DNA of 64,000 bases from an uncultured Candidatus Poseidoniales archaeon (GTDB lineage: Archaea > Thermoplasmatota > Poseidoniia > Poseidoniales > Thalassarchaeaceae), in the NCBI GenBank assembly GCA_963990035.1, contig CAXDMJ010000002.1, positions 3,441 to 67,440 of the forward strand. The letters are read 5' to 3'. Positions 49,350 to 55,937 of this stretch are shown here, in pieces. The notes under the pieces were generated by a model. It had not been told where the DNA came from. It did not search any database and worked only from the letters and a program-made list of their open reading frames with translations. Both the position numbers and the translations under genes were made by a program. Each line of letters begins with the position of its first letter. Position 1 is the stretch's first letter.

Positions 49350-50306
49350 TCATGATTCTGATAAACCAGTGGTCTTGTCAAAGTTGAGCCCTTGTTCTTT
49401 GATAGAAGAATCAATATTTTCTTGTTTTAATTCTTTTAGTAAGTAATCCATTCTTTCTGTTACTGCACCTGCAACATTTATTCCTGATGCTTTCTCAATA
49501 CCTTCTAAACCAGGACTTGAATTAACTTCCAATACAAGCGGCCCTCTTTTTGATTCTAGCATGTCTACTCCTGCGACTTCAAGCCCCAAAATTTTTGCTG
49601 CTTTGATAGCGATTTTCTCAAATTCATCACTAATTTCTATTTTTTCTACGCTTCCACCTAAGTGGAAATTTGAACGAAACTCATTTCCATGAGCTTTTCT
49701 TCTCATACAGGCTACTACTTTTCCACCCACTACCAATGCTCGAATATCTTTCCCATGAGATTCCTCAATATATTCTTGAACTAAAGGCCCCATATCTCTT
49801 TCTAACATCTGATATACTAGTTGTTTTGCATGTTGTTCAGTTTGTGCTAGGAAAACACCTGCTCCATGTGTTCCTTCAGTTGCTTTTACTACACAAGGAG
49901 TCCCTCCTACTCTAGTAATTGCTCTGTTTGTATCTTCCCATGAATTTACTTGAACAGTTATAGGTACAGGGATGTTTCCAGACGACATCATTTGACATGC
50001 AATTAATTTATCTCTACTGCTTCTAATCCCCTCACTAGAATTCATCACAATGATACCGATTTTTTCAAATTCTAAAACTTTGTCACAGCCTTTATTTGTA
50101 ATTGAATAACCTATCCTTGGAATTACTGCATCGCACTCAAGTGGCCACGACCTATACAAAAGTCCCTCTTCTGACGAACCTGCACCTGAGATACGTAACG
50201 GATCTACGACTTTCACCACCCAACCCAACTTCTCAGCCTCTTCTACAAGACGTTTCGTGGAGTATAATTGTGGGCCGCGAGATAGAATCACTACAACAGG
50301 GTCCAT
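49350..50306 (-). CDS. RimK-family ATP-grasp ligase (alpha-L-glutamate ligase-like)
   Basis: 318 aa with the RimK/LysX-type N-terminal region and an ATP-grasp core ('GKVVACMRRKA...FRSNFHLGG...VAGVDMLE'). Confidence 0.75.
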   Translation of the reverse strand: MDPVVVILSRGPQLYSTKRLVEEAEKLGWVVKVVDPLRISGAGSSEEGLLYRSWPLECDAVIPRIGYSITNKGCDKVLEFEKIGIIVMNSSEGIRSSRDKLIACQMMSSGNIPVPITVQVNSWEDTNRAITRVGGTPCVVKATEGTHGAGVFLAQTEQHAKQLVYQMLERDMGPLVQEYIEESHGKDIRALVVGGKVVACMRRKAHGNEFRSNFHLGGSVEKIEISDEFEKIAIKAAKILGLEVAGVDMLESKRGPLVLEVNSSPGLEGIEKASGINVAGAVTERMDYLLKELKQENIDSSIKEQGLNFDKTTGLSES

Positions 50307-50404
50307 AATTTGCCGCGGTGACCAATACTTCTTGAGTTCTTTGGCTCCGTAAATGGTATTTTACTCCAGTACTAGCGGTTCTGCAACACAGAAGAAGGAA
50401 GGTA

Positions 50405-52714
50405 TTGAAAGACTCGCCTATTGGACTAGGCCTGTTAACTATGGTAGACGGCGAGTCTTTTAGCTTCGACTCACTATCGAAAATGAAGGTTTCTGAGTTA
50501 AGAGAGATATGTAAAAAAGGGCAATTATTAATATCTGGTAACAAGGCAGAGTTAATATTTAGAATTCTTGAAAATACTTCTTCTCCACAGGACAATGAAG
50601 AACTATTTCTTGATGAAGAAAATATTGTGTTGGAAAGTCCCCAAACTACGATTCCTGAAATTAAAGATACAGCGCGTTCTTCTAGAGAAATTGATGATGC
50701 AATAGATCGTCTAATCTCACGTGTTGATGATAAAGAAAGTCTAATCATAGATGAAAATCCCGAAAATTCTATTTTGAATGATGAAATTATGGATGCAGAG
50801 ATATTTGATGCAGAAATTATTGAAGAAGTAGGGAATGAATTAGATGAAAATCCCGAACCATCTTTAATTCTTGAAGAAAAAGATCCTTGGTCTAGTAATA
50901 TGGTAGAAGAAAAGAAAGTAGAGTTAGAAAATTTAAGCGTGGATATAGAGGAACCATCATTTACTATTACAATTCCATCATTAGATATTTTCAAGAAGTA
51001 TTGGCAGCAAATATCTTCTATATTCGTAGTTATTTTATTAATTGGTGCTGGTGTAGTTTATCTTCTCTCAGCCGATTCGTCATTTCAAGCTCGACCAGTA
51101 AATTATGGTGATTCGATGACATTCACTTTGAGTGATGGAGAAATAATCTTAGATGGTGATGAAATGGTTTCTTTACTAAGAGATAATTTGCCAGATACTG
51201 CAATTCAGGATGCATGTAATCGATTAACTGTGGATATTGTAGGTACAGGCTCTATTACAATTATAGAAGGGGATGACTCTCAAATAACCCATCCTTTAGA
51301 TAAACAATCTTCTAATCCCGATTATTCTGGTACTATTGATGCTAAAGATGCCTATGGACGTTCTCACCTCACAGTTCAACAACAAATTACACATGATCTT
51401 GATATTGATCTAGAGGGTAAAACTTGGAAAGATACTAATGTTTGCGGAAATATAGGATGGTCATTACCTGGTAATGAGCTTTTAATGACTACAAATCTCT
51501 ATGATGAGTTAGCGGAAAGTAGCCTTCTAAGATCTGAATCTATAATTTCTTTTACTGATTCTGATGGAGATACAACAAATGCAAATATTGTAACTTTTGG
51601 TGCTGATGGTTTTGGTAATCTAGATGGCATAGCCCCGATATTGACATTCCCCCTATCTCCTATTGAATTATATGATTTCTTTGGAAGTATTAAGTTACAA
51701 TCCGGAATGACTTCGGAGTCAATATCTGATTGGAATAATGATTGGCAATGGACAGTTGGTTCTGAGCAGAATAATGCTGAGCACGGTCTTGTGTATCCAG
51801 TAAAAATTATTCATGAAGAGATTGAAAGATGCCTTGGTAGAATACATATAGATATTTTAGTTAAAAATGGGATTCCTTGGGCTGTTGAACAAGAGGTAGA
51901 TATTTTGATTGATAAAGATGAGAGTACATCTGATTGTAGTTTCATTGAAAGTACTGCGACAGATGCAGCACTTCCAGAAGGATCTCTGACAATTAAAATG
52001 AAAATGAGTGAAATATCATCAGATTCAGGTTCTAAGTCAATACCTTGGGGTTCAGTCTATGCTGGTCGACCAGGTATTGGTGAAGATAAACTAAGTCCGA
52101 CTGCAAAGAAAGATTGGTCAACTGCTATATGGGATGAATCAGAAATTAGATTATTCAGTATAGAAGATGCATTAAACTGTCTACGTACGAATTATTCCAG
52201 TCGAGATATTTCTGTTGCAATTGATAGTGATGGATATATCTGGCAGGGAACATATGGCGTGACTGATTTTGAAGAATGGAATTTATCTTGGGTCCGCTCT
52301 GATGAAACTTCAGGTTGGGCAATAGTTAGTTTATCTAATAATGAATGCTCTTTTGATGATGAAGGACGCAATGATGGTGAGATTACTTGGAATCAAGATG
52401 CTATACCCTCTACTCACACCTTAAATAAATTAGAAAATAGAATTCTTAATACTAATCGTTATCAAGATTTAGCCAGTTCTCTAGGCTCATCCTCATCGTG
52501 GTTTGAAGATACTAATTACGGTTACAGAGTTTCCGTTTCAGAAGATAATGATCTCTTCTCATTCCTTCCAGGAGATTTAACTGAAGGACAAGTTACAATT
52601 ATTGGAAGTAGAGAGTGGACTGAATCTAATCGAGAACATAATATAAACTTCGCAATGGATGCTCAAACAGGTCGGATGCTTGCTTGGGCAGAAATCATTG
52701 GCTCATCTCAGTAA
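50405..52714 (+). CDS. Membrane protein with N-terminal cytoplasmic SAP/HeH DNA-binding motif, acidic linker, one TM helix and a ~550-aa extracellular domain
   Basis: 'LSKMKVSELREICKKGQLLISGNKAELIFRIL' fits the SAP consensus L..L.V.ELR.....RGL...G.K..LI.RL. TM helix 'ISSIFVVILLIGAGVVYLLSA'. Its 3' end overlaps the parA ORF. Confidence 0.7.
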   Translation: MKDSPIGLGLLTMVDGESFSFDSLSKMKVSELREICKKGQLLISGNKAELIFRILENTSSPQDNEELFLDEENIVLESPQTTIPEIKDTARSSREIDDAIDRLISRVDDKESLIIDENPENSILNDEIMDAEIFDAEIIEEVGNELDENPEPSLILEEKDPWSSNMVEEKKVELENLSVDIEEPSFTITIPSLDIFKKYWQQISSIFVVILLIGAGVVYLLSADSSFQARPVNYGDSMTFTLSDGEIILDGDEMVSLLRDNLPDTAIQDACNRLTVDIVGTGSITIIEGDDSQITHPLDKQSSNPDYSGTIDAKDAYGRSHLTVQQQITHDLDIDLEGKTWKDTNVCGNIGWSLPGNELLMTTNLYDELAESSLLRSESIISFTDSDGDTTNANIVTFGADGFGNLDGIAPILTFPLSPIELYDFFGSIKLQSGMTSESISDWNNDWQWTVGSEQNNAEHGLVYPVKIIHEEIERCLGRIHIDILVKNGIPWAVEQEVDILIDKDESTSDCSFIESTATDAALPEGSLTIKMKMSEISSDSGSKSIPWGSVYAGRPGIGEDKLSPTAKKDWSTAIWDESEIRLFSIEDALNCLRTNYSSRDISVAIDSDGYIWQGTYGVTDFEEWNLSWVRSDETSGWAIVSLSNNECSFDDEGRNDGEITWNQDAIPSTHTLNKLENRILNTNRYQDLASSLGSSSSWFEDTNYGYRVSVSEDNDLFSFLPGDLTEGQVTIIGSREWTESNREHNINFAMDAQTGRMLAWAEIIGSSQ

Positions 52715-53736
52715 CTATAGAATTCACTATGTTGATTGTCTGTGATAGCGGCACATTCAATTTCCTTCTAAGCGCCCAAGGCGCTTGTATGTCCATTAAT
52801 GATGATGATGTTCGGCTACCAAAAGTCGAAAAAGTTCCATTAATAATTGATGTAGAATTTATAGAAGATGAAGTAGTCAATTCCTCCTCTGACAATGTCA
52901 ATCCAGTTAATACTCAGAAAACAAGTCGCCCATTAGATTTACCATTCCCGATTCCTACTCCTGAAGGTAGAGCTAGAATCGTCACTGTCATTAATCAGAA
53001 GGGAGGTGTTGGAAAAACAACGACAGTCATTAATATTGGATCTCAACTTGCTTTAAGTGGACATAGAGTATTGGTAGTAGATGCAGATTCTCAGGGTAAT
53101 TGTGCTACTGGATTAGGGGTAGATAAAAGTAAGGTTAAACATACAACTAGAGACCTAATATTGTCTCCTGAAACTGCAGTTACAGCTCGCCATGCGACAG
53201 CAGTTGATGGATTGCATATGATTGTTGGAGATCGCAGTTTAGTTGGTTTAGAGCAAGAAATGTTGCGACAGTTAGGCAGAGAAAGGAGATTAGCTGAGGC
53301 TTTAGAGCCATTATTACCACATTATGATATTGTGATAATAGATACTCCTCCATCATTAGGTTTAGTGACAATCAATGCTTTAGTTGCCAGCGATGGTGTC
53401 CTAATACCAGTTCAAACTGAATACTTTGCTTTGGAAGGATTGGCAATGTTAGCAGGAACAATTAGAGAGGTTAGAAATCTACTCAACCCGCGATTAGGTG
53501 TTGATGGTGTTTTGCTAACTATGCATGCGAGTACTCTTCTAAATCAACAGGTAGCTTCAGAAATTCTAGAACATTTACCTGAGTTTGTAATACAACCAGC
53601 AATCCGTCGAAATATCAAATTGGCTGAAGCACCCAGTCACGGAGTCCCAATCCATCTACACGATCCGAATAGTAATGGTGGCCAAGATTATCAAGGAGTT
53701 TCTCATTCCTTGGAAAAAAGATGGGGACTTATTTAG
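52684..53736 (+). CDS. parA: ParA/Soj-type partition ATPase (start may be Met at 52789)
   Basis: Deviant Walker A 'NQKGGVGKTTTVINIG', 'VVDADSQGN' and 'IIDTPPSLG'. Confidence 0.9.
   Translation: MGRNHWLISVTIEFTMLIVCDSGTFNFLLSAQGACMSINDDDVRLPKVEKVPLIIDVEFIEDEVVNSSSDNVNPVNTQKTSRPLDLPFPIPTPEGRARIVTVINQKGGVGKTTTVINIGSQLALSGHRVLVVDADSQGNCATGLGVDKSKVKHTTRDLILSPETAVTARHATAVDGLHMIVGDRSLVGLEQEMLRQLGRERRLAEALEPLLPHYDIVIIDTPPSLGLVTINALVASDGVLIPVQTEYFALEGLAMLAGTIREVRNLLNPRLGVDGVLLTMHASTLLNQQVASEILEHLPEFVIQPAIRRNIKLAEAPSHGVPIHLHDPNSNGGQDYQGVSHSLEKRWGLI
52771..52785 (+). promoter_or_regulatory. Perfect GC-rich palindrome AGCGCC-CAA-GGCGCT immediately 5' of the probable parA start
   Basis: The 6-bp arms are perfect and the sequence is unique in the window. 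It is a candidate operator. Confidence 0.25.
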
Positions 53737-54690
53737 ATGGTATCTAAAGGTCTAGGCCGAGGACTTGAATCTGTAGCGGAGTTAGCTAAGGATGGTCCTG
53801 ATCTTTCATCTTACGTTTCCTCAGACTCTATGCAGCCCGTTGACTCTCCCAGAACCGCAGTTCTTTGGATGATATTTGGAAGTGTTTGTTTTGGAACTAT
53901 GAATGCACTTGTCAAATGGACTTCACTAAATGCAGACGTTTGGATGATTATTTTTATCCGTTCATTAGTAATTGCCGTGGCCGTTGCAATATTCGCAAGA
54001 TATCATAACACTAGCCTTCGGATGAATGACCCTAAAAAGATGTTTTTACGCTGTTTAGTAGGATTAATTGCAATGATACTTTATTTTTCTGCCCTATCTT
54101 TAATTCCTATTGGTCAAGCAGTAACATTACAATATACTGCTCCCTTATTTGTCGCACTCTTATCTGGTAGTTTAATTCGTGAAAAAGTTTCTTCTTCTGT
54201 AATAATTCTGCTAATAACTGCATTTTTTGGAATTATATTAATTGTTTCTCCAGACTTAGATAGTATAGATCCGAATGCTTTGTTAGCTCTAGGATCAGGA
54301 TTCTTTGCAGGTTTAGCTTATATTTTTGTCCGGGACTTGAGGAAGACAGATTCCCCCTCTACAGTTGTTTTTTGGTTTGCGGCTTTTTCCGTATTGGGTT
54401 CAGTAATTCAAGCAGCACCTGCTTTGTCTAGTCTTACTTGGGAAATGATTGCTGCATTAGTAGGGATTGGCGTAGGTGCAGGTGGAGGCCAAGTAGGAAT
54501 CACAATGGCTTATCACAAAGCAAATGCTGCTTGGGTCAGCGCATTCTCTTATCTTACAGTAATAATTGCAACAATATATGGTATTATTCTATTTGATGAA
54601 ATATTAACAGCAAAAATACTAATTGGAGGATTATTGATAGTCGGTTCTGGTGTTGCATTAATTTTCTTCACACCACCAACTAATAAATAG
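53737..54690 (+). CDS. EamA/DMT-family 10-TM permease with an N-terminal ParB-like ParA-interaction peptide
   Basis: N-terminal 'MVSKGLGRGLESVAELAKDG' matches the bacterial ParB/Spo0J N-terminus (compare 'GLGRGLEALL'). The rest has typical EamA repeats. The ATG directly follows the parA stop codon. Confidence 0.8.
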   Translation: MVSKGLGRGLESVAELAKDGPDLSSYVSSDSMQPVDSPRTAVLWMIFGSVCFGTMNALVKWTSLNADVWMIIFIRSLVIAVAVAIFARYHNTSLRMNDPKKMFLRCLVGLIAMILYFSALSLIPIGQAVTLQYTAPLFVALLSGSLIREKVSSSVIILLITAFFGIILIVSPDLDSIDPNALLALGSGFFAGLAYIFVRDLRKTDSPSTVVFWFAAFSVLGSVIQAAPALSSLTWEMIAALVGIGVGAGGGQVGITMAYHKANAAWVSAFSYLTVIIATIYGIILFDEILTAKILIGGLLIVGSGVALIFFTPPTNK

Positions 54691-55385: not shown

Positions 55386-55937
55386 TCAGTCGCGTCGAGT
55401 CATCAATCCTGCTATTCCTATTGCTGCCAAAGTTAGCGGCATAATGAATCCAGGCATGCTATCTTCTTCCTCTTGTGGCCAACATGAGTTATCATCTCCA
55501 CCCCAATCATTTCCATCATACCAACAATCAGACCAAATCTTCCAACCAAAACCTGTTTCCGGAACTCTTGTTGTATTCTCACTCGAGTCAATTAGATCAA
55601 TCCTCCAGTTCAAATAACTAGCACCTTCGTCAACTTCTACTATGCTTTTCCAAGTTTTATTATCCTCAGTAGTCATTTCAATAGTTTTCGGAGGATAACA
55701 AACTCCAGTATTTATGCAAACTTGTGTGATCCAATTAATATGGCTAATATTTTCAATAGCATCATCTTTGAGAGTTACAGAAATAGTAAATTCAGATTCT
55801 GCATAGGCCACATCATTCGCATCTATTGCTAAGATATTAGTTTCAGAAAGGTCAGTGCCCTCATTTAATCCACCCTCTGAAGCTGCAACATTGAATGCTA
55901 AAATAGTAACAATAGCAACTGCGACCAGTTTGTGCAT
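55386..55937 (-). CDS. Secreted protein with PGF-CTERM archaeal sorting signal
   Basis: An N-terminal signal peptide. The C-terminus 'MPGFIMPLTLAAIGIAGLMTRRD' gives PGF, a TM helix and a basic tail. Confidence 0.65.
   Translation of the reverse strand: MHKLVAVAIVTILAFNVAASEGGLNEGTDLSETNILAIDANDVAYAESEFTISVTLKDDAIENISHINWITQVCINTGVCYPPKTIEMTTEDNKTWKSIVEVDEGASYLNWRIDLIDSSENTTRVPETGFGWKIWSDCWYDGNDWGGDDNSCWPQEEEDSMPGFIMPLTLAAIGIAGLMTRRD

What the first reader, a model, noticed from the sequence alone, without database searches (positions are those of the whole stretch)
50477..50580. SAP/HeH DNA-binding motif at the cytoplasmic N-terminus of an archaeal single-pass membrane protein
'LSKMKVSELREICKKGQLLISGNKAELIFRILE' fits the SAP helix-extension-helix consensus at nearly every position. 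SAP motifs are mainly eukaryotic, with some phage and bacterial Rho-N-like relatives. The architecture here is SAP, ~150-aa acidic linker, TM, then a large extracellular domain. That combination is unusual and would tether DNA to the membrane.
Basis: partly seen in the sequence, partly recalled or inferred. Interest (0 to 1): 0.7.

Follow-up and report, generated by a model that had tools for sequence, protein, structure and literature searches.

The report
Membrane-anchored SAP protein beside ParA module
A marine archaeon (Marine Group II) encodes a single-pass membrane protein with a genuine SAP DNA-binding domain on its cytoplasmic end, and its gene always sits next to a ParA-type positioning module, so it may link the chromosome to the cell membrane; this function has not been tested.

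Summary
Window 50477-50580 encodes residues 13-46 of a 757-aa protein (50441-52714, +). Its N-terminus passes Pfam's own cutoff for SAP (33.2 vs 23.9 bits), folds confidently as helix-extension-helix, and superposes on the DEK SAP domain. One TM helix (190-212) follows a 143-aa acidic linker. A 545-aa C-terminal domain has six invariant cysteines and a LolA-like open barrel. All indirect evidence places the N-terminus inside the cell.

The family is confined to Poseidoniales (Marine Group II archaea). It keeps this architecture down to 23% identity. NCBI already labels it 'SAP domain-containing protein', but I found no study of it.

- The 'linker' carries a second conserved element, an acidic tandem motif (residues 112-129).
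- The gene is the constant upstream neighbour of a ParA module. The ParA is Soj-type, and the partner (here called 'o162') has a ParB-like N-terminal peptide (RGLGRGLDDL...). In the window's clade that peptide sits on the EamA transporter that follows ParA.

Best reading (about 0.4): a membrane-anchored DNA-binding protein that acts as the cargo or anchor of a ParA positioning system. The main rival is a ToxR-like transmembrane regulator. DNA binding and all protein contacts are inferred. I rate it a new variant of known kinds, interest about 0.6.

The parts
50441..52714 (+). Gene for the 757-aa SAP / TM / ectodomain protein (stop codon included)
   Evidence: ORF. ATG start supported by homologue N-termini. 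386 homologues at E <= 1e-3; the 120 listed cover the full length.
50474..50572 (+). SAP (helix-extension-helix) domain, residues 12-44; structured part 9-46
50573..51001 (+). Acidic, mostly disordered cytoplasmic linker, residues 45-187
   Evidence: Residues 61-190 have net charge -25. pLDDT below 50 for 49-81 and 98-181. 15-22% identity and many indels outside the two motifs.
50684..50728 (+). Conserved helix within the linker (residues 82-96, 'REIDDAIDRLISRV')
   Evidence: Helix in the AF2 model. 36% mean identity where it aligns, and it aligns in about half of the relatives.
50774..50827 (+). Family-wide acidic tandem motif, residues 112-129 (LNDEIMDAEIFDAEIIEE; consensus phi-phi-E-A-E repeated)
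   Evidence: Aligned in all 28 relatives at 41% mean identity, the same level as SAP. A119 and A124 are present in 26 of 29.
51008..51076 (+). Single transmembrane helix, residues 190-212
   Evidence: The only Kyte-Doolittle peak above 1.6 (maximum 2.68), with KK on the N-terminal flank. Helix 188-210 in the model. Nearly all 29 relatives have a single such segment.
51077..52711 (+). Extracellular domain, residues 213-757: LolA-like open beta-barrel (about 214-395) plus two further alpha/beta regions
52748..52786 (+). Conserved control element upstream of ParA: box GCGGCACATTCAA (52748-52760) and hairpin AAGCGCC-caa-GGCGCTT (52770-52786)
   Evidence: The hairpin is in 44 of 76 MGIIb loci, with a compensatory stem change and a variable loop. 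The box is in almost all. Sequence read.
52789..53736 (+). Soj-type ParA ATPase (315 aa, deviant Walker A KGGVGKTT)
   Evidence: Pfam AAA_31, CbiA, ParA, MipZ. PDB hits: ParA 8ray at 3.6e-58, T. thermophilus Soj at 1e-51. Directly downstream of the SAP gene in all MGIIb loci that reach that far and in L165, L166, L169, L170; one gene further down in L167.
53737..53811 (+). ParB-like N-terminal peptide (MVSKGLGRGLESVAELAKDGPDLSS) on the EamA transporter (gene 53737-54690). The gene starts 1 nt after the ParA stop.
   Evidence: Sequence. The strict motif is in 37 of 73 orthologues, and the extension is absent in about 25. It aligns with the N-terminus of the small partner o162 of other lineages.

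Best explanation
The gene encodes a type II (N-in, C-out) single-pass membrane protein found only in Poseidoniales.

Proposed mechanism: the cytoplasmic N-terminal SAP domain binds double-stranded DNA with little sequence preference. A flexible acidic linker of about 140 residues joins it to the membrane, so the protein holds nucleoid DNA at the inner face of the membrane. The Cys-rich ectodomain, which includes a LolA-like open barrel, engages a hydrophobic ligand or an envelope component outside the cell.

The protein does not act alone. Its gene is the constant upstream neighbour of a ParA module, made of a Soj-type ParA and a small partner, o162. The flexible N-terminus of o162 carries a ParB-like ParA-binding peptide. 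In the window's clade that peptide is grafted onto the EamA transporter that follows ParA. By the usual logic of ParA/MinD systems, the SAP protein is the cargo or anchor that this module positions relative to the nucleoid, or through which the chromosome is attached to the membrane during segregation.

Shown: the SAP domain, the single TM, the architecture and its conservation, the gene neighbourhood, and the peptide motif.

Inferred: DNA binding, topology, ParA-peptide contact, any contact between o162 and the SAP protein (the acidic motif 112-129 is a candidate site), and the biological role.
For: 1. The SAP domain is real by sequence, profile and fold, and its basic and glycine positions are invariant.
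2. SAP and the acidic motif are the two best-conserved cytoplasmic parts, at 43% and 41% identity against 15-22% for the rest of the linker.
3. N-in topology is supported by the positive-inside rule (73 vs 30 K+R), by invariant Cys and an N-x-S sequon found only C-terminal to the TM, and by the extracytoplasmic fold types.
4. The gene is present in 140 species-level genomes (the 80 kept are all Poseidoniales) and in 256 metagenome loci. It always sits in the same core region: Xer, RimK, SAP..., PUA, S8e, PolB.
5. Every lineage sampled has one of these downstream of the SAP gene:
- ParA then o162: L166, L167, L169, L170. The o162 start overlaps the ParA stop or lies within 14 nt.
- o162 alone, with its start overlapping the SAP stop in about 25 MGIIa loci.
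- ParA then peptide-EamA: the window and the 80 MGIIb loci.
- ParA alone: L165, whose ParA is 56% identical to the window's while the SAP proteins share about 27%.
6. The o162 and EamA N-termini read KRGLGRGLDDLM, KKGLGRGLDDLL and KGLGRGLESV. [quoted passage not shown] The ParB example sequences I compared them with are from my own knowledge.
7. The AF2 model of o162 has a flexible N-terminal 32 residues and a compact alpha/beta domain. That is the partner-protein layout described for ParA/MinD systems, whose ATPase genes usually lie beside their cargo genes (PMC10241942).
8. There is a precedent: Lem2 and Man1 use an N-terminal HEH domain on an integral membrane protein to anchor chromatin to a membrane (PMC3337167).
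Against: - No experiment or direct computation shows DNA binding. SAP/HeH folds can also bind RNA or proteins.
- Much of the region is collinear across Poseidoniales, so synteny alone is weak evidence.
- The ParA gene has its own conserved upstream box and hairpin, so it need not be co-transcribed with the SAP gene.
- MGIIa loci have no ParA within 6 kb.
- About 25 of 73 MGIIb EamA orthologues lack the peptide although ParA is kept.
- A crude test found no co-variation between peptide presence and features of the SAP protein.
- A large, fast-evolving ectodomain (35-40% identity where ParA keeps 70-75%) is not needed for a simple tether. It suggests an additional or different extracellular role.
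- AF2 gives no confident contact for the acidic motif.
Confidence: 0.4

Rival explanations
1. It is a ToxR/CadC-like transmembrane one-component transcription regulator. The LolA-like ectodomain senses an external hydrophobic ligand or envelope state. The SAP domain binds specific promoter DNA from the membrane and changes transcription. The ParA neighbourhood is incidental.
Against: SAP is not mentioned among the DNA-binding domains in the main text of that survey (0 occurrences). From general knowledge, SAP is a low-specificity DNA or chromatin binder rather than a promoter-specific one. The gene is single-copy and universal in the order, in a housekeeping region, rather than variable like most sensors. 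This reading explains neither the conserved acidic motif nor the coupling with o162.
Confidence: 0.2
2. The main job is outside the cell: lipid or hydrophobic-ligand binding, or a cell-surface structural or receptor protein. The cytoplasmic SAP domain is a protein- or RNA-binding handle, or a localisation tag, and not a chromosome tether.
For: 72% of the protein is ectodomain, with a LolA/LolB/LppX-like barrel that typically holds acyl chains. The protein evolves fastest in its neighbourhood, as surface proteins often do. The SAP-like Rho-N domain is part of an RNA-binding module (general knowledge).
Against: SAP is the best-conserved part of the protein and keeps the G-x-K and Arg positions typical of SAP domains. 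The tight, often overlapping coupling to cytoplasmic partners (o162, ParA) points to a cytoplasmic function.
Confidence: 0.2
3. The SAP match is a chance or compositional hit, or the ORF is not a real gene.
For: Single-sequence PDB hits are individually weak, E 0.06-1.3. A 253-aa antisense ORF overlaps the 5' part of the gene.
Confidence: 0.01

Closest known systems
Eukaryotic HeH/LEM inner-nuclear-membrane proteins (Lem2, Man1, Heh1/Src1, Heh2)
   Same: An N-terminal helix-extension-helix DNA-binding fold sits on an integral membrane protein and faces the DNA compartment. In fission yeast it anchors chromatin to the membrane (PMC3337167).
   Different: Those proteins have two TM segments and a C-terminal MSC domain, and they face the nucleoplasm. 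This one has one TM and a 545-aa extracellular LolA-like domain. It matches Pfam SAP rather than HeH (HeH 12.5 bits vs cutoff 28.9), and it is archaeal. It is an analogue, not a member.
Transmembrane transcription regulators (ToxR, CadC, archaeal ArnR-type; 'TTRs')
   Same: Cytoplasmic DNA-binding domain, single TM and extracytoplasmic domain. The class occurs in archaea (PMC10269533).
   Different: TTRs use HTH or winged-helix-type domains. SAP is not mentioned in the survey's main text. No evidence of transcriptional control exists here. Linkage to a ParA module is not a TTR feature.
ParABS and other ParA/MinD positioning systems (ParB, McdB, SegAB)
   Same: A Soj-type ParA lies next to a gene whose product has a flexible, basic N-terminal peptide of ParB type (GLGRGL...). 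The gene order is ParA then partner, and the cargo gene is adjacent.
   Different: No ParB/Srx CTPase domain or parS was found. The partner o162 has no Pfam family and a different fold. In the window the peptide sits on a 10-TM EamA transporter. The putative DNA-binding component is a separate membrane protein.
LolA/LolB/LppX/RseB-MucB open beta-barrel proteins
   Different: There is no sequence similarity and no Pfam hit. Archaea have no outer membrane or Lol pathway. Here the fold is one module of a larger membrane-anchored ectodomain.

Membership tests
Pfam SAP domain (PF02037) | Profile score at or above the curated gathering cutoff | tested here: met
   33.2 bits vs 23.9 for the full protein and 37.7 bits for the N-terminal 98 aa. 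26 of 29 relatives match.
Pfam SAP domain (PF02037) | Two helices joined by an extended loop with a conserved Gly and flanking basic residues | tested here: met
Pfam SAP domain (PF02037) | Binds DNA | not testable with these tools
   Needs EMSA or anisotropy with residues 1-60.
HeH/LEM-MSC inner nuclear membrane proteins | HeH/LEM profile match | tested here: not met
   PF12949 HeH scores 12.5 bits vs cutoff 28.9 and covers only 12 residues.
HeH/LEM-MSC inner nuclear membrane proteins | Two TM segments and a C-terminal MSC domain | tested here: not met
   One hydrophobic segment. No other Pfam domain. The C-terminal domain is a beta-rich ectodomain.
Transmembrane transcription regulators (TTR) | A recognised DNA-binding domain plus at least one TM region | tested here: inconclusive
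   TM met. SAP is a DNA-binding fold but has 0 occurrences in the survey's main text. I did not check its supplementary domain list.
Transmembrane transcription regulators (TTR) | Regulates transcription of target genes | not testable with these tools
   No expression or binding-site data.
ParABS-type partition module (neighbouring genes) | ParA with deviant Walker A, closest to chromosomal Soj | tested here: met
   KGGVGKTT motif. 8ray ParA 3.6e-58, Soj 1wcv 1.2e-51.
ParABS-type partition module (neighbouring genes) | Partner with an N-terminal ParA-binding peptide, encoded just after ParA | tested here: met
   Met by motif and gene order only. Peptides: KGLGRGLESV on EamA in the window; KRGLGRGLDDLM and KKGLGRGLDDLL on o162. 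The N-terminus is flexible in the model. Binding was not tested.
ParABS-type partition module (neighbouring genes) | ParB/Srx CTPase-HTH protein and parS sites | tested here: not met
   No Pfam hit for o162. No solved relative. The topology is not ParB-like. parS was not searched.
LolA/LolB-like fold (ectodomain subdomain) | Open antiparallel beta-barrel superposable on LolA/LolB | tested here: met
LolA/LolB-like fold (ectodomain subdomain) | Binds acyl chains or lipoproteins | not testable with these tools
   Needs ligand-binding assays.

The most novel reading that the evidence does not exclude
Poseidoniales have a membrane-based chromosome organisation or segregation machine in which the functions of ParB are split across separate proteins. 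A small adaptor, o162, carries the ParA-activating peptide; in MGIIb a membrane transporter's N-terminus carries it instead. The SAP protein supplies DNA binding and the membrane anchor. A Soj-type ParA bridges them on the nucleoid. This would be a prokaryotic counterpart of HeH/LEM chromatin tethering, coupled to a ParA gradient.
Probability: 0.15. Interest if true: 0.85.

Novelty: new variant of a known kind. Interest (0 to 1): 0.6.

Why it matters
Chromosome organisation and segregation in archaea are poorly understood; the SegAB paper, PMC8682754, calls chromosome partitioning in Archaea 'obscure'. Marine Group II archaea are uncultured. From general knowledge, they are among the most abundant planktonic archaea.

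A protein that is universal in the order and joins a eukaryote-type SAP DNA-binding domain to the membrane, encoded beside a ParA and a ParB-like activating peptide, gives a concrete hypothesis for how these cells couple nucleoid and envelope. It can be tested in vitro.

It would also be a prokaryotic functional analogue of the HeH/LEM chromatin tethers of the nuclear envelope. And it would add SAP to the DNA-binding domains used by membrane-bound proteins in prokaryotes.

If the SAP domain does not bind DNA, the finding reduces to a lineage-specific surface protein with an odd cytoplasmic tail.

Tried and rejected
- NCBIfam, PADLOC and whole-protein PDB sequence searches found nothing for the SAP protein.
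- Foldseek against PDB and BFVD gave no significant ectodomain match. Only SAP proteins of iridoviruses and giant viruses matched, through the SAP domain. The afdb50 library was unavailable.
- A winged-helix (linker histone GH1) lead for o162, E 0.58, was not supported by its predicted alpha-beta4-alpha-beta2-alpha topology.
- The sigma-70 promoter and terminator scan was no better than shuffles and does not apply to archaea.
- GC skew only follows gene strand.
- A regex-based test for co-variation between the EamA peptide and SAP-protein motifs was too crude and showed no association.
- The 5.5-kb insertion between SAP and o162 in one MGIIa subclade holds an unrelated subtilase and a TPR protein on the other strand.
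- There are no other SAP domains in the window and no o162 or o343 homologue in the window.
- Literature searches for SAP in Marine Group II or in prokaryotic membrane proteins found no prior description.
- I first thought the full 'GLGRGL' form of the peptide tracked ParA adjacency. The core RGLxxL is in all lineages and the prefix is in only some, so I dropped that claim.
Full report
**1. What is there**

Window 50477-50580 (+) translates to SKMKVSELREICKKGQLLISGNKAELIFRILENT. It lies inside an ORF that the ORF listing starts at TTG 50405. Homologues begin MADGESF..., which fits the ATG at 50441, so the gene is 50441-52714 and the protein is 757 aa.

Pfam SAP (PF02037) matches residues 12-44 at 33.2 bits against a gathering cutoff of 23.9, E 3.7e-8. 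Rho_N, SAP_new25 and HeH hit the same stretch below their cutoffs. NCBIfam has nothing. All single-sequence PDB hits of the first 60 residues are SAP domains: MKL1, SIZ1, E1B-AP5, Tho1, Hcc-1. Each is weak on its own.

An AlphaFold2 model built on 29 diverse relatives has mean pLDDT 77.5 and gives:
- the N-terminal domain at pLDDT above 90;
- a disordered linker, apart from one helix at 82-96;
- a TM helix at 188-210;
- a confident beta-rich C-terminal domain.

**2. Architecture and topology**

There is one hydrophobic segment, residues 190-212, with a Kyte-Doolittle maximum of 2.68 and KK just before it. Residues 61-190 carry 36 D+E against 11 K+R.

Evidence for N-in, C-out:
- In 29 relatives the 15 residues before the TM hold 73 K+R and the 15 after hold 30 (my sums).
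- Six cysteines (259, 335, 464, 499, 580, 636) and the sequon-containing WNLSW motif are invariant, and all lie C-terminal to the TM.

No dedicated topology predictor was available, so the topology is an inference.

**3. The 'linker' is not just a linker**

Region-by-region identity to 28 relatives is as follows.

| Region | Mean identity |
|---|---|
| SAP | 43% |
| Acidic tandem motif (112-129) | 41% |
| Ectodomain | 33-36% |
| Rest of linker | 15-22%, with many indels |

The acidic tandem motif at 112-129 reads LNDEIMDAEIFDAEIIEE (consensus phi-phi-E-A-E repeated). It aligns in every relative. It is a second conserved cytoplasmic element of unknown partner. AF2 gives it no confident contact.

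**4. Distribution**

A profile-free scan of 1.84 billion representatives finds only 122 at E <= 1e-3. About 30 are full length, at 23-45% identity. The remaining hits that reach only the SAP region are eukaryote-type or giant-virus-type multi-SAP proteins with HMG-box, RING or F-box domains.

26 of 29 full-length representatives hit Pfam SAP. Nearly all have a single TM-like segment and six Cys after it. In GTDB species genomes, 140 encode a relative, and the 80 kept are all Poseidoniales MAGs or single-cell genomes. NCBI already names several 'SAP domain-containing protein'. I found no paper describing it.

**5. Gene context**

In the window the order is:
- Xer-type recombinase (-)
- RimK ATP-grasp (-)
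- SAP gene (+)
- ParA (+, ATG at 52789)
- EamA transporter (+, starting 1 nt after the ParA stop)
- nitroreductase (-)
- further genes, then PolB

The ParA is a chromosomal Soj type: 8ray 3.6e-58, T. thermophilus Soj 1e-51. This order holds in all 80 MGIIb loci. But the whole region is collinear there, so that alone says little. The informative part comes from deeper lineages.

The EamA protein starts MVSKGLGRGLESVAELAKDGPDLSS. [quoted passage not shown] The ParB example sequences I compared it with are from my own knowledge. The strict motif is in 37 of 73 MGIIb EamA orthologues, in degenerate form in about 8 more, and the extension is missing in about 25.

In the MGIIa-type clade (80 metagenome loci) there is no ParA or EamA. 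Instead a 133-aa ORF, which I call o162, follows the SAP gene. Its start overlaps the SAP stop in about 25 loci. Its N-terminus reads GRGLDHLMEQNxTELxFLSAYGG, which aligns with the EamA extension at the same spacing.

Six further deep lineages were sampled:
- SAP, ParA, o162 in L166, L167, L169 and L170. The o162 start overlaps the ParA stop or lies within 14 nt. Two of these N-termini are textbook ParB-like: KRGLGRGLDDLM and KKGLGRGLDDLL.
- SAP, o162 in L082, L164, L168 and L171.
- SAP, ParA only in L165. Its ParA is 56% identical to the window's, while the SAP proteins share about 27%.

The o162 family has 532 members, has no Pfam domain, and is named only from 'Candidatus Poseidonia' and other Poseidoniales or Euryarchaeota MAGs. 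Its AF2 model has a flexible N-terminal 32 residues and a compact alpha/beta domain at pLDDT above 90. That is the layout described for ParA/MinD partner proteins, and ParA/MinD ATPase genes usually lie next to their cargo genes (PMC10241942).

So the SAP gene is the constant upstream neighbour of a ParA/partner module across the order. The likeliest ancestral order is SAP, ParA, o162. On that view MGIIa lost ParA from the locus, and MGIIb transferred the peptide onto EamA.

**6. Interpretation**

Best reading (about 0.4): a membrane-anchored, SAP-mediated DNA-binding protein that serves as the cargo or anchor of this ParA module. It would link nucleoid and membrane, with the ectodomain engaging a hydrophobic ligand or the envelope. 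The closest functional precedent is the HEH-domain inner-nuclear-membrane proteins Lem2 and Man1, which anchor chromatin through their N-terminal HEH domain (PMC3337167). This protein fails the membership tests for that family: HeH profile below cutoff, one TM, no MSC domain.

The main rival (about 0.2) is a ToxR-like transmembrane transcription regulator. The architecture fits that class, but the survey's main text does not mention SAP (PMC10269533).

A second rival (about 0.2) is a mainly extracellular function, with SAP as a non-DNA handle.

**7. Caveats**

- DNA binding, topology and all protein-protein contacts are inferred.
- ParA has its own conserved upstream box and hairpin, so co-transcription with the SAP gene is uncertain.
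- MGIIa loci lack a nearby ParA.
- Many MGIIb EamA orthologues lack the peptide.
- A crude co-variation test was uninformative.

**8. Verdict**

The SAP domain itself is already annotated. The family's architecture, its restriction to Poseidoniales, the conserved acidic motif, and the link to a ParA/ParB-peptide module were not in any paper I could find. I rate it a new variant of known kinds, interest about 0.6.

Noticed in passing
window 53737-53811 (N-terminus of the EamA gene 53737-54690): A 10-TM EamA/DMT transporter carries a ParB-like ParA-binding peptide (KGLGRGLESV...PDLSS) at its N-terminus and starts 1 nt after the ParA stop. The extension is clade-variable: strict motif in 37 of 73 orthologues, absent in about 25.
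   Followed up: yes
window 52748-52786: A conserved box (GCGGCACATTCAA) and a GC-rich hairpin (AAGCGCC-caa-GGCGCTT) lie just upstream of the ParA ATG. The hairpin is in 44 of 76 related loci, with a compensatory stem change and a variable loop. It may be a promoter, 5'-UTR or operator element. There is no Rfam match.
   Followed up: partly
L170:8096-8542, L169:3598-4065, L086:4206-4607 and about 70 other loci: A new small protein family ('o162', about 133 aa, 532 members, no Pfam). It has a flexible ParB-like N-terminal peptide and a compact alpha/beta domain. It is encoded after ParA or directly after the SAP gene with overlapping stop and start codons. No homologue is detectable in the 64-kb window.
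   Followed up: yes
L083:5740-6771 and equivalents (L166:4777-5916, L170:3730-4911): A roughly 340-390-aa ORF ('o343') with no Pfam domain precedes the SAP gene in all non-MGIIb lineages. It has an acidic N-terminus, two apparent hydrophobic segments and a Pro-rich tail. It is absent from the window's clade.
   Followed up: partly
proteins P0195, P0209, P0221, P0226, P0236, P0237: Outside the family, the nearest sequence relatives of this SAP domain are eukaryote-type or giant-virus-type multi-SAP proteins (with HMG-box, RING, F-box or NADAR domains). This raises the possibility that the archaeal SAP domain was acquired horizontally.
   Followed up: no
window 52277-52291 (residues W613-W617): The motif WNLSW has W613, N614 and W617 invariant and S616 nearly invariant across the family. 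It is possibly a conserved N-glycosylation sequon in the ectodomain.
   Followed up: no
window 55386-55937 (-): A conserved 183-aa ORF of unknown function, with a weak sub-threshold DsbD_N hit, lies downstream of the SAP/ParA module in most Poseidoniales lineages sampled, just before the PUA-domain gene; in MGIIb a nitroreductase gene, and in some loci further genes, lie between.
   Followed up: no
L138:8119-13549: In one MGIIa subclade a 5.5-kb insertion separates the SAP gene from o162. It carries a 1136-aa subtilase (with MopE and TSP3 repeats) and a TPR protein on the opposite strand.
   Followed up: partly
window 50233-50994 (-): A 253-aa antisense ORF overlaps the 5' third of the SAP gene. 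It has low-complexity, Ser-rich composition and I saw no evidence that it is a gene.
   Followed up: no
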